Below, in pieces: positions 41,306-63,238 of a stretch of 64,000 nt of DNA. Position numbers and translations under genes: made by a program. Position 1 is the stretch's first letter, and every line of letters begins with the position of its first letter. Origin of the DNA: Escherichia coli (GTDB lineage: Bacteria; Pseudomonadota; Gammaproteobacteria; Enterobacterales; Enterobacteriaceae); the NCBI RefSeq assembly GCF_013122565.1, contig NZ_CP053258.1. One strand, given 5' to 3'. The notes under the pieces are model-generated. The model was given only the letters and a program-made list of their open reading frames with translations, did not search any database and was not told the origin of the DNA.

Positions 41306-41478
41306 AAAGTTCTTTTGCGTTGCATTGCTGGCGTAAATGTCAGCAATGCAGCATTTCCTCACGATTCTCCTTTGACGATCGCACTTTTTGCTCGTTATGA
41401 TGGCGTCGCTAGCCTCAGTAAATCCTTACTCCGGCGGTGCGCAACCCGTGCGCGTGAACCACTATCTGAATGCTCATC

Positions 41479-42414: not shown

Positions 42415-42595
42415 TAGGCAGGATAAGGCGTTTACGCCGCATCCGGCATTCGGAGCACAATGCCTGATGCGATGTTTGCGCATCTTATCAGGCCTACAAA
42501 CGTGACGCGTCCGTAGGCAGGATAAGGCGTTCACGCCGCATCCGGCATCCGGTGCACGCTGGCTGATAAGATGCTTGCGCATCTTATCAGGACTC
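42415..42595. repeat. BIME/REP cluster between convergent pbpG and dld
   Basis: Two copies of gcaggataaggcgtt(t/c)acgccgcatccggcat plus repeated gcgcatcttatcagg units. Confidence 0.75.
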
Positions 42596-61928: not shown

Positions 61929-62037
61929 ATATTCATCCCTGAAATGTATTAATGAAATAAACGATATTTTACGCGCAATAAATGTTTGGTGCATTAGTTG
62001 TTTGAGCGAAAAATATCTGGAAAGCAGATCACAGTAA

Positions 62038-62120
62038 ATAAAAAAACCTGCTGGTGAGGCAGGTTCTTTTATTTACTACAGTGACGCTAACTTGCTGATT
62101 GTGCAACATTTCGTACCAAC
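62038..62120 (-). ncRNA. orzO: OrzO-like type I antitoxin sRNA (about 83 nt)
   Basis: Minus-strand promoter (-35 TTGCAA at 62150-55, 17-bp spacer, -10 TATAAT as reverse complement of 62127-32); 5' region complementary to the zorO 5' UTR; ends at hairpin aacctgc-tggtgag-gcaggtt (62045-62065) followed on the minus strand by TTTTTTT. Confidence 0.7.
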
Positions 62121-62126
62121 GAATAA

Positions 62127-62177
62127 ATTATAACCATATCCACACTCCATTGCAATTCAGTGAGTGAGATTTATAAT
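62127..62177. promoter_or_regulatory. Overlapping divergent promoters of orzO (-) and zorO (+) sharing one -35 hexamer
   Basis: Palindromic TTGCAA (62150-55) serves as -35 for +strand -10 TATAAT (62172-77, 16-bp spacer) and -strand -10 TATAAT (62127-32, 17-bp spacer). Confidence 0.65.
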
Positions 62178-62358
62178 CCTGCCCGTTGGGAGGTTGTGCC
62201 GGATCGGACCAATTTTAAGTCCTGGCTGCCGGACGGGTGGTGCCGCAGGCGGTGCCCTGATCCGGAGAGCAACGTTTCGTACCAACATACGTAAACCAGT
62301 ATCGACAGGCAGTGTAAGGGTAAGGTGCTGGTGTTGCGCTCCTTAATAAGGAGAGCGG

Positions 62359-62448
62359 ATGGACACGCTGACACAAAAGTTAACCGTGCTCATTGCCGTA
62401 CTGGAGTTATTAGTGGCTCTGTTACGGTTGATTGATTTGTTGAAGTAA
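62359..62448 (+). CDS. zorO: Type I toxin ZorO (29-aa hydrophobic peptide)
   Basis: Hand translation MDTLTQKLTVLIAVLELLVALLRLIDLLK*; strong SD aaggag 5 nt upstream; about 174-nt 5' UTR from the predicted TSS; matches my recollection of ZorO from E. coli O157:H7. Confidence 0.85.
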   Translation: MDTLTQKLTVLIAVLELLVALLRLIDLLK

Positions 62449-62469
62449 CGGGCAAATTGAAACGCATCT

Positions 62470-62496
62470 AAGGGGGAATACCGTTTCCCCCTTTAA
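62470..62496 (+). terminator. Terminator hairpin after zorO
   Basis: Stem aagggggaa / ttccccctt with 6-nt loop, short T tail. Confidence 0.55.
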
Positions 62497-62645
62497 TAAA
62501 ATGATTACATCTTCCATTAATTCACCCGATAACTTTTTTCATATTTATAAATTCATCGATTTTATAATCAACGTACTATTTGGCCGGGATGTGAATAATC
62601 ATGGTGGGCTATTGGCGAAAAATATCTGGAAAGTAGATCGCAGAA

Positions 62646-62729
62646 AATAAAAGAACCTGCTGGTGAGGCAGGTTCTTTTATTTACTACTTTGATGTTAAG
62701 TTACTGATAGTGCAACATGGCATCTCAAC
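62646..62729 (-). ncRNA. orzP: OrzP-like type I antitoxin sRNA
   Basis: Same architecture as orzO: -35 TTGCAA 62759-64, -10 reverse complement of 62736-41, hairpin 62654-62674 plus T-run on the minus strand. Confidence 0.65.
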
Positions 62730-62735
62730 GAACGA

Positions 62736-62786
62736 ATTATAACCACCTCGGGGCCGTGTTGCAATTAAGATAATGAGATTTATAAT
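62736..62786. promoter_or_regulatory. Overlapping divergent promoters of orzP (-) and zorP (+)
   Basis: Shared TTGCAA (62759-64); +strand TATAAT 62781-86; -strand TATAAT reverse complement of 62736-41. Confidence 0.6.
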
Positions 62787-62967
62787 CCTGACTGTTGGGA
62801 AGTTGCGCCGGATCGAACCCATTTCAAGTCCTGGCTACCGGACGGGTGGTGCCGCAGGTAGTGCTCTGATCCGGAGTGCAACATGGCGACTCAACATACG
62901 TAAACCAGTATCGACAGGCAGTGTAAGGGTAAGGTGCTGGTGTTGCGCTCCTTAATAAGGAGAGCGG

Positions 62968-63057
62968 ATGGACACGCTGACAAAAAAGTTAACCGTGCTC
63001 ATTGCCGTACTGGAGTTATTAGTGGCTCTGTTACGGTTGATTGATTTGTTGAAGTAA
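62968..63057 (+). CDS. zorP: Type I toxin ZorP (29 aa; one substitution, Q6K, relative to the upstream copy)
   Basis: Hand translation MDTLTKKLTVLIAVLELLVALLRLIDLLK*; identical SD and context to zorO. Confidence 0.85.
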   Translation: MDTLTKKLTVLIAVLELLVALLRLIDLLK

Positions 63058-63078
63058 CGGGCAAATTGAAACGCATCT

Positions 63079-63105
63079 AAGGGGGAATACCGTTTCCCCC
63101 TTTAA
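63079..63105 (+). terminator. Terminator hairpin after zorP
   Basis: Same aagggggaa / ttccccctt hairpin as after zorO. Confidence 0.55.
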
Positions 63106-63110
63106 TAAAG

Positions 63111-63238
63111 CTATACTCGTCATACTTCAAGTTGCATGTGCTGCGACTGCGTTCGTTCACCCCGGTCACTTACTTTAGTAAGCTCCTGGGAATTCACTCG
63201 CTTATCGCCTTCCTGCAACTTGAATTATTTAGAGTATA
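63111..63238. repeat. ERIC (IRU) enterobacterial repetitive intergenic consensus element
   Basis: Reverse complement of 63150-63198 reads gtgaattcccaggagcttactaaagtaagtgaccggggtgaacgaac, matching the ERIC core GTGAATCCCCAGGAGCTTACATAAGTAAGTGACTGGGGTGAGCG; terminal inverted repeats ctatactcgtcatacttcaagttgca / tgcaacttgaat...agagtata. Confidence 0.85.

What the first reader, a model, noticed from the sequence alone, without database searches (positions are those of the whole stretch)
62103..62286. The antitoxin sRNA pairing region is a diverged direct repeat of its target in the toxin 5' UTR, and differs between the two copies
+strand gcaacatttcgtaccaac (62103-62120, the 5' end of orzO on the other strand) versus UTR gcaacgtttcgtaccaac (62269-62286) gives an 18-nt sRNA-mRNA duplex with one G-U pair. 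In unit 2, tgcaacatggcatctcaac (62711-62729) versus tgcaacatggcgactcaac (62877-62895) gives a duplex with one G-U and one mismatch. The two units differ strongly in exactly this region, while the SD, ORF and 3' part of the UTR are almost identical. This is what you would expect if each antitoxin is specific for its own toxin.
Basis: seen in the sequence. Interest (0 to 1): 0.5.

Follow-up and report, generated by a model that had tools for sequence, protein, structure and literature searches.

The report
Known zor-orz toxin-antitoxin pairing sites

Summary
62103-62120 and 62269-62286 differ at 1 of 18 bases. 62711-62729 and 62877-62895 differ at 2 of 19 bases, and this repeat extends to 21 nt (62709-62729 and 62875-62895). 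Chance expects about 0.01 such matches in the window.

The locus is the tandem zor-orz type I toxin-antitoxin locus between yehL and yehK. Both sRNAs match Rfam OrzO-P at 88.8 and 90.2 bits (threshold 60). The unit 1 toxin is identical to the ZorO encoded in an O157:H7 genome.

The first 18 nt of OrzO pair with zorO +85..+102, OrzP cannot repress zorO, and nucleotides +9..+11 set specificity (Wen 2014, 2017).

Unit 2 is not the published zorP/orzP. It is a third pairing allele, most likely the zorQ/orzQ named by Shore et al. 2024, who also suggested that variation at the pairing site prevents crosstalk.

My additions are modest:
- Cognate seed duplexes fold at -31 to -34 kcal/mol and non-cognate ones at -18 to -24.
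- Five positions show compensatory changes among O, P and Q.
- The G·U and mismatch imperfections are never "repaired" in 5,426 complete genomes.
- Type-specific divergence covers about 210 bp and stops at the 3' edge of the target.

OrzQ specificity itself remains untested. Verdict: already known, low interest.

The parts
62036..62120 (-). orzO antitoxin sRNA gene (TSS 62120, terminator hairpin 62045-62065 plus U run)
   Evidence: Rfam RF02083 OrzO-P at 62040-62113, 88.8 bits against a gathering score of 60. Terminator (I2). -10 TATAAT at 62132-62127, 7 nt upstream.
62103..62120 (-). OrzO seed, sRNA +1..+18 (5'-GUUGGUACGAAAUGUUGC), variable core +5..+11
   Evidence: Identical to the seed of the O unit in an O157:H7 genome. 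V1 GAA at +9..+11 as in PMC3919570.
62127..62155 (-). orzO promoter (-35 TTGCAA at 62155-62150, 17-nt spacer, -10 TATAAT at 62132-62127)
   Evidence: The -35 and -10 hexamers match those tabulated in PMC11264685.
62150..62177 (+). zorO promoter (-35 TTGCAA at 62150-62155, the same palindromic hexamer used by orzO; -10 TATAAT at 62172-62177)
62185..62358 (+). zorO 5' UTR, 174 nt (TSS inferred from the promoter and the published UTR length)
   Evidence: ATG at 62359 minus the 174-nt UTR of PMC5397157 gives 62185, which lies 8 nt after the -10.
62269..62286 (+). [quoted passage not shown]
   Evidence: (duplex mapped to mRNA 84-103). EAP +73..+102 and OrzO protection in PMC5397157.
62359..62448 (+). 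zorO toxin ORF, 29 aa MDTLTQKLTVLIAVLELLVALLRLIDLLK
   Evidence: Identical to the toxin encoded next to the O seed in O157:H7 (L001 unit 2).
62470..62500 (+). zorO 3' hairpin and T run (probable terminator), end of repeat unit 1
   Evidence: Read from the sequence: AAGGGGGAA...TTTCCCCCTTT. The unit alignment ends here.
62645..62729 (-). Second antitoxin sRNA gene, third pairing allele (orzQ type), TSS 62729
   Evidence: Rfam RF02083 at 62649-62722, 90.2 bits. -10 at 62741-62736.
62709..62729 (-). OrzQ-type seed, sRNA +1..+21 (5'-GUUGAGAUGCCAUGUUGCACU)
62736..62786 (.). Divergent promoters of unit 2 sharing the -35 TTGCAA at 62759-62764
62794..62967 (+). 5' UTR of the second toxin mRNA (zorQ type), by register with unit 1
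   Evidence: Alignment of the units. ATG at 62968.
62875..62895 (+). Target of the second sRNA: 20 of 21 positions paired, A·A mismatch at sRNA +7, G·U at +8
62968..63057 (+). Second toxin ORF, 29 aa MDTLTKKLTVLIAVLELLVALLRLIDLLK (Q6K relative to ZorO)
62079..62286 (.). Type-specific block of unit 1: Orz 5' half, both promoters, and the UTR up to and including the target. This is the only part whose variation tracks the O/P/Q type.

Best explanation
This is the tandem zor-orz type I toxin-antitoxin locus of Escherichia, lying between yehL and yehK. Each unit encodes a 29-aa membrane toxin behind a 174-nt leader and a divergently transcribed Orz sRNA of about 85 nt.

The single-stranded 5' end of Orz (+1 to about +18/21) pairs with positions +85..+102 of its own toxin leader. 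That site is the 3' end of the region exposed after 5' processing (EAP), which promotes translation. Pairing blocks translation and triggers RNase III cleavage. Because the genes are divergent, this complementarity shows up as a direct repeat on the + strand.

The conserved flanks of the seed (+1..+4 and +12..+18) are shared by all units. The core (+5..+11) differs between units and co-varies with the target, so each sRNA recognises only its own mRNA.

Unit 1 is the published O type (zorO/orzO). Unit 2 is the third type (zorQ/orzQ), not the published P type.

Shown elsewhere by experiment, for the O and P units of O157:H7: pairing site, sufficiency of the 18 nt, non-cross-reaction, and V1 as the specificity determinant. 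Shown here: identity of unit 1 with that system, anatomy, energetics and covariation. Inferred: that OrzQ represses zorQ and that O and Q do not cross-react.
For: - Family membership: Rfam OrzO-P hits at 88.8 and 90.2 bits against a threshold of 60. The ZorO peptide, seed and target are identical to those of an O157:H7 genome. The genomic site, yehL-yehK, is the same.
- Promoters sit where the literature places them. V1 = GAA at +9..+11 and the target at +85..+102 reproduce the published numbering.
- Literature: PMC3919570, PMC5397157, PMC11264685.
- Energetics: cognate seed duplexes -31.3 (OrzO/zorO), -34.4 (OrzQ/zorQ) and -34.0 (OrzP/zorP). Non-cognate duplexes -17.9 to -24.4. The experimentally inactive OrzP/zorO pair is -18.9.
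- Covariation: compensatory double changes at +5, +6, +9, +10 and +11 among O, P and Q.
- Conservation: seed and target show zero within-type variation across 26 units, against 0.24-0.30 between types. The same alleles occur in three other Escherichia species.
- Population counts: the O seed is in 1,261 genomes and the O target in 1,257 of 5,426 complete E. coli genomes.
Against: Nothing contradicts the explanation. The limits are these:
- No experiment on OrzQ/zorQ was found. 'orzQ' occurs in only one paper of the library.
- The equation of my Q allele with the published zorQ/orzQ rests on the A20S toxin variant seen in one Q unit (L005), because the supplementary table was truncated.
- Predicted non-cognate duplexes are still better than shuffled seeds (means -14.6 and -16.4), because the flanks are shared. 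Weak crosstalk at high sRNA levels is therefore not excluded.
- Thermodynamic predictions ignore kinetics and the kissing-type initiation proposed in the literature.
Confidence: 0.93

Rival explanations
1. The difference between the two pairing sites is a by-product of neutral compensatory drift in old paralogs. It was not selected to prevent crosstalk. Only pairing is constrained, not sequence, so seed and target wander together.
For: The whole block of about 210 bp at 62079-62286 is diverged, not only the pairing sites. The functionally looser orz promoter spacer is the most diverged stretch, at 10 of 13. Each duplex tolerates an imperfection.
Against: Seed and target differ 2.6-fold more than the rest of the 5' part (p = 0.004). 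Within each type they are invariant across 26 units and across Escherichia species, so they are not drifting now. All 9 two-unit loci examined carry two different types, though these are not phylogenetically independent. PMC3919570 shows real non-cross-reaction between OrzP and zorO.
Confidence: 0.2
2. The direct repeat is a relic of how the antitoxin arose, by duplication of a piece of the toxin leader next to an outward promoter. Its present sequence similarity reflects that ancestry more than selection.
For: In unit 2 the repeat can be extended leftward. CTGAT-AGTGCAAC at 62704-62716 matches CTGAT(CCGG)AGTGCAAC at 62866-62882 if a 4-nt indel is allowed (read from the sequence).
Against: The extension is absent in the P type (sequences). 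Similarity stops abruptly at CCAAC, which is exactly the sRNA +1. Compensatory changes at 5 positions show that selection currently maintains pairing. Origin and present function are not mutually exclusive.
Confidence: 0.1
3. The repeat is coincidental or is a protein-binding or recombination site, not an RNA pairing site.
For: None found.
Against: Chance expectation is 0.01. The repeat sits at the exact 5' end of an Rfam-recognised sRNA. Published lead-probing footprints and compensatory mutagenesis map the pairing to this site.
Confidence: 0.01

Closest known systems
zorO-orzO / zorP-orzP of E. coli O157:H7 EDL933 (Wen, Won, Fozo 2014, PMC3919570; Wen, Harp, Fozo 2017, PMC5397157)
   Same: Unit 1 has the same seed, target, toxin peptide and promoter hexamers, the same 174-nt leader geometry and the same chromosomal site. 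The tandem two-unit organisation is the same, and specificity lies in the core of the seed.
   Different: Here the O unit occupies the first slot and is partnered with a Q-type unit. In O157:H7 the order is P then O. Overall locus identity to O157:H7 is only 89%.
zorQ/orzQ, the 'third locus type' (Shore et al. 2024, mSystems, PMC11264685)
   Same: Unit 2 carries a third seed/target allele, GUUGAGAUGCCAUGUUGC. In strain 18AR0366 (L005) that allele accompanies the A20S toxin variant that the paper calls ZorQ. The paper already notes that the variable pairing region may prevent crosstalk.
   Different: In this window the toxin of unit 2 has Q6K, not A20S. The paper's sequence tables could not be read (truncated), so the identity is inferred. 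No specificity experiment for OrzQ was found.
tisB-istR-1 and shoB-ohsC (divergent chromosomal type I toxin-antitoxin systems of E. coli)
   Same: The sRNA is divergently encoded, with a short stretch of complementarity at its 5' end. The target lies far upstream of the RBS in a long, processed leader (a standby-type site). IstR-1 action is RNase III-dependent (as summarised).
   Different: The toxin and sRNA sequences are unrelated. The weak ohsC_RNA hit, 35 bits against a threshold of 50, is only terminator-like. These systems are single-copy, so no paralog discrimination is needed.
[quoted passage not shown]
   Same: Multiple near-identical copies sit in one genome, and each antitoxin discriminates its own mRNA through short variable recognition regions (mentioned in PMC3919570).
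   Different: Sib RNAs are fully antisense (cis-encoded) with two recognition domains. Orz RNAs are divergent, with one seed of 18-21 nt.

Membership tests
zor-orz type I toxin-antitoxin family (Rfam RF02083 OrzO-P) | sRNA matches the OrzO-P covariance model above the gathering score | tested here: met
   88.8 and 90.2 bits against 60, both full length 1-76.
zor-orz type I toxin-antitoxin family | 29-aa hydrophobic Zor toxin ORF downstream of an AAGGAG RBS | tested here: met
   The unit 1 ORF is identical to the toxin next to the O seed in O157:H7. Unit 2 differs by Q6K. NCBIfam has no model for it.
zor-orz type I toxin-antitoxin family | Divergent arrangement, with the sRNA 5' end complementary to about +85..+102 of a 174-nt toxin leader | tested here: met
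   Duplexes map to sRNA 1-19/22 and mRNA 81/84-103. Promoters and TSS geometry.
zor-orz type I toxin-antitoxin family | Chromosomal location between yehL and yehK | tested here: met
zor-orz type I toxin-antitoxin family | Toxicity of Zor overproduction and rescue by the cognate Orz, aided by RNase III | not testable with these tools
   Shown for zorO/OrzO of EDL933 only.
zorO/orzO (O type) specifically, for unit 1 | Seed GUUGGUACGAAAUGUUGC with V1 = GAA, and target GCAACGUUUCGUACCAAC | tested here: met
   Identical to the O unit of O157:H7 strain 17B6-2. V1 as.
zorP/orzP (P type), for unit 2 | Seed with V1 = ACG (GUUGGAACACGAUGUUGC) | tested here: not met
   The unit 2 seed is GUUGAGAUGCCAUGUUGC, with +9..+11 = GCC.
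zorQ/orzQ (third type), for unit 2 | Locus sequence closest to the zorQ/orzQ query of PMC11264685 | tested here: inconclusive
Indirect link: the same pairing allele accompanies the ZorQ-defining A20S toxin in L005.

The most novel reading that the evidence does not exclude
O, P and Q may be three ancient, mutually orthogonal 'specificity cassettes' of about 210 bp, each comprising the Orz 5' half, the promoters and the leader up to the target. On this reading they predate the splits between Escherichia species and are exchanged between two chromosomal slots, while recombination keeps the toxin half homogeneous. Each cassette would also keep its own imperfection in the duplex because that imperfection is selected, for example to tune RNase III cleavage or duplex turnover. 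The imperfections are G·U at +13 in O, A·G at +7 in P, and A·A at +7 plus G·U at +8 in Q. No 'repaired' version was found in 5,426 complete genomes. The mosaic pattern and the fixation are observed here. Their selective meaning is speculation.
Probability: 0.2. Interest if true: 0.35.

Novelty: already known. Interest (0 to 1): 0.1.

Why it matters
The finding matters little beyond correct annotation. RefSeq records show no feature under this locus and NCBIfam has no ZorO model, so recognising two toxin genes and two sRNA genes here is useful bookkeeping.

The only open piece touched here is that the O/Q combination in this genome has never been tested for cross-repression.

Tried and rejected
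- **RNAduplex on full-length RNAs.** It gave unrealistic duplexes running the whole length of the molecules. I replaced it with seed-versus-mRNA duplexes and cofolding.
- **Test for a three-unit P-O-Q ancestor.** I used a concatenated P+O+Q core query. No genome ranked above the two-unit O157-like loci at 96.3%, so the idea that O-Q, P-O and P-Q arise by deletion from P-O-Q remains unverified.
- **Scan of one genome per species for the Orz terminator 21-mer.** It returned only three non-coli Escherichia loci, all with O or P alleles. This gave no new specificity types and no reach outside the genus.
- **NCBIfam scan of both toxins.** No family matched.
- **Supplementary tables of PMC11264685.** They were truncated before the zor/orz sheets, so the published zorQ/orzQ sequence could not be compared directly.
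- **Weak Rfam hits.** ohsC_RNA, STnc370 and Trp_leader all fall below their gathering scores and overlap the Orz terminator, so I treated them as noise.
- **Accessibility prediction of the target, full-length versus processed leader.** The shift was small, 0.35 to 0.47 and 0.40 to 0.51. It is in the direction of the published probing but is not decisive.

Full report
**1. Observation**

- In unit 1, 62103-62120 (GCAACATTTCGTACCAAC) and 62269-62286 (GCAACGTTTCGTACCAAC) differ at one base.
- In unit 2, 62711-62729 and 62877-62895 differ at two adjacent bases. This repeat is 2 nt longer than reported, at 62709-62729 and 62875-62895.

The repeat finder groups the four copies into one family with spacings of 166, 443 and 166 nt. 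In the whole 64-kb window each seed has exactly one partner within 2-3 mismatches, where shuffles expect 0.01 and 0.00. The repeat is real and non-random.

**2. What it is**

Two Rfam OrzO-P antitoxin sRNAs lie on the minus strand at 62040-62113 (88.8 bits) and 62649-62722 (90.2 bits), against a gathering score of 60. Downstream of each, on the plus strand, is a 29-aa ORF:
- MDTLTQKLTVLIAVLELLVALLRLIDLLK at 62359-62448.
- The Q6K variant at 62968-63057.

The locus sits between yehL and yehK, as in E. coli O157:H7.

The promoter scan found exactly four sigma-70-like promoters, two per unit. Each divergent pair shares a single palindromic -35 hexamer TTGCAA, at 62150-62155 and at 62759-62764. 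The orz -10 boxes place the sRNA 5' ends at 62120 and 62729, the last base of each repeat copy. The published 174-nt leader puts the toxin TSSs at 62185 and 62794.

[quoted passage not shown] The best match is strain GF3-3 at 99.1%, and O157:H7 matches at only 89%.

**3. How it works, according to published experiments**

Wen, Won and Fozo (PMC3919570) showed the following:
- ZorO is toxic and OrzO rescues.
- The first 18 nt of OrzO, grafted onto IstR-1 or OhsC, are sufficient for repression.
- RNase III is needed at high toxin levels.
- OrzP does not repress zorO.
- Exchanging V1 (+9..+11, GAA against ACG) switches specificity, with compensatory rescue in zorO.

Wen, Harp and Fozo (PMC5397157) added:
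- The full-length 174-nt leader is translationally inert.
- Removing 28 nt opens the region +73..+102 (EAP), which promotes translation.
- OrzO protects the 3' end of EAP in lead probing and inhibits translation in vitro.

In this window the seed/target duplex maps to mRNA +84..+103 and sRNA +1..+19, and +9..+11 of the unit 1 sRNA is GAA. Unit 1 is therefore the published zorO/orzO in every testable respect. Its seed and target are identical to those of the O unit of an O157:H7 genome, including the U·G wobble at +13.

**4. Unit 2 is not the published zorP/orzP**

I extracted seed and target from 14 E. coli loci sampled across the identity range and from 3 other Escherichia species. This gave three discrete allele pairs:

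| Type | sRNA seed | Target (mRNA) |
|---|---|---|
| O | GUUGGUACGAAAUGUUGC | GCAACGUUUCGUACCAAC |
| P | GUUGGAACACGAUGUUGC | GCAACAUCGUGGUCCAAC |
| Q (unit 2 here) | GUUGAGAUGCCAUGUUGC | GCAACAUGGCGACUCAAC |

One sRNA variant, q (GUUGGGGCGCCAUGUUGC), was also found, paired with a Q target.

Observed arrangements are O-Q (this window, GF3-3, OkiPb01710), P-O (O157:H7, O111:H8, E. whittamii), P-Q, and single P, O or q units. K-12-like strains carry an orphan orzP.

All of this has been described. Shore et al. [quoted passage not shown] They find that 99.8% of 2,439 loci keep cognate pairing potential, and they describe the orphan OrzPmg of MG1655. I link my Q allele to their zorQ/orzQ only indirectly, through the A20S toxin in L005 unit 2. 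The supplementary sequences were truncated.

**5.

Seed (22 nt) against whole mRNA duplex energies, in kcal/mol:

| sRNA | zorO | zorQ | zorP |
|---|---|---|---|
| OrzO | -31.3 | -23.4 | -24.4 |
| OrzQ | -17.9 | -34.4 | -22.6 |
| OrzP | -18.9 | -21.3 | -34.0 |

Shuffled seeds average -14.6 and -16.4 (z = -7.4 and -7.5). Full-length cofolding gives the same ranking, with binding energy (ddG) of -17.0 and -25.7 for cognate pairs against -10.5 and -2.5 for non-cognate pairs.

Counting pairs with the two sequences held in the same alignment gives the following:
- O pairs over 18 contiguous positions, including one G·U.
- Q pairs as 6(1)14.
- P pairs as 6(1)13.
- Non-cognate pairs in this window reach only 16 of 21, with longest runs of 9 and 7.

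The non-cognate values are like the experimentally inactive OrzP/zorO pair (16 of 21, longest run 8). They fall below the published requirement of 15 contiguous or 17 discontinuous nucleotides with one mismatch.

Among O, P and Q there are compensatory double changes at +5, +6, +9, +10 and +11. The flanks +1..+4 and +12..+18 are invariant.

**6. Where the units differ**

| Region | Differences between unit 1 and unit 2 |
|---|---|
| Seed plus target | 13 of 42 |
| orz promoter spacer, 62137-62149 | 10 of 13 |
| Rest of the 5' part | 27 of 225 (Fisher p = 0.004 against seed plus target) |
| From 62287 onward | 1 of 214 |

Across 26 units, variation that tracks type is confined to about 62079-62286. 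The seed and target show no within-type variation at all.

In nine two-unit genomes the core block differs at 37-53 of about 209 positions. The 3' half differs at 1-7 of 208, and that variation is not type-linked, at 4.2 against 5.3 differences. Unit flanks follow the slot, not the type.

I infer that the toxin half recombines freely, or is converted between units, while the specificity block is kept apart. This was not tested formally.

**7. Small additions**

The imperfections in the duplexes are fixed. I queried 49-50-mers centred on the imperfect positions, so that a mismatch there prevents a megablast seed:

| Sequence | Natural version (of 5,426 complete E. coli genomes) | 'Repaired' Watson-Crick version |
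|---|---|---|
| O target | 1,257 | 0 |
| O seed | 1,261 | 0 |
| Q target | 1,097 | 0 |
| Q seed | 855 | 0 |

The same imperfect O and P alleles occur in E. whittamii and in two unnamed Escherichia species. Whether this reflects selection or mere sufficiency of 17 or more pairs is unknown.

**8. Verdict**

The only untested element is the O/Q orthogonality in this particular arrangement, which computation predicts. Interest is low.

Noticed in passing
62150-62155 and 62759-62764: A single palindromic -35 hexamer TTGCAA serves both divergent promoters of each unit: zor with a 16-nt spacer and orz with a 17-nt spacer. The two promoters must therefore compete for or share one RNA polymerase contact.
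   Followed up: partly
62137-62149 vs 62746-62758: The spacer of the orz promoter is the most diverged stretch between the two units, at 10 of 13 positions. It is also strongly type-linked across genomes, 0.54 between types against 0.125 within. Its meaning is unknown. It could set different Orz expression levels per type.
   Followed up: no
62286/62287 (and 62895/62896): Divergence steps down more than ten-fold exactly at the 3' edge of the target site. Co-resident units differ at 37-53 of about 209 positions upstream and at 1-7 of 208 downstream in nine genomes. The downstream variation is not linked to the O/P/Q type. This suggests recombination or gene conversion of the toxin half.
   Followed up: partly
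62007-62078 and 62495-62506; loci L001-L017: Unit flanks follow the slot (first or second position), while the core follows the type. The O core is in slot 1 here but in slot 2 in O157:H7. Only the orders O-Q, P-O and P-Q were seen. A P-O-Q three-unit ancestor was searched for and not found.
   Followed up: partly
62274 / 62108; 62888-62889 / 62722-62723: The wobble and mismatch positions of the cognate duplexes are fixed. The natural alleles occur in 855-1,261 of 5,426 complete E. coli genomes and the perfectly complementary versions in none.
   Followed up: yes
62185-62199 (and 62794-62808): The first 15 nt of the toxin mRNA (GUUGGGAGGUUGUGC) resemble the Orz seed, sharing GUUGG...GUUG.GC. 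In the predicted fold of the full-length leader they pair with the target region. This fits the published closure of the +73..+102 EAP region before 5' processing. The mRNA 5' end may act as a built-in mimic of the antitoxin.
   Followed up: partly
L009 (E. coli SCU-116), 719-741: A single-unit locus carries a variant sRNA seed (GUUGGGGCGCCAUGUUGC) opposite an ordinary Q target, still pairing at 19 of 21 positions. Such variants probably account for part of the roughly 240-genome excess of Q targets (1,097) over Q seeds (855).
   Followed up: partly
L014 (K-12-like strain 1FA), 666-760: An orphan orzP-type sRNA gene with promoter but no toxin or target. It is already published as OrzPmg of MG1655.
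   Followed up: yes
63112-63238: An ERIC-like repetitive element lies between the second unit and yehK. It has 25-nt inverted terminal arms (I1) and a sub-threshold hit to Rfam V_AS5, 40 bits against 96. The ERIC identification is from my own reading of the sequence.
   Followed up: no
62000-63110: RefSeq records show no annotated feature under the zor/orz units, and NCBIfam has no model that recognises the 29-aa toxins. These four genes are therefore routinely missing from annotation.
   Followed up: yes
62704-62716 vs 62866-62882: In unit 2 the repeat can be extended by CTGAT if a 4-nt CCGG insertion in the leader is allowed. This gives possible extra pairing of sRNA +22..+26. It is also present in O but absent in P.
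   Followed up: no
41394-41474; 42417-42494; 42516-42593: There are ordinary Rfam hits elsewhere in the window: Peptidase-S11 RNA at 72.8 bits and two naRNA4 (REP-derived) copies at 80.6 and 65.9 bits.
   Followed up: no
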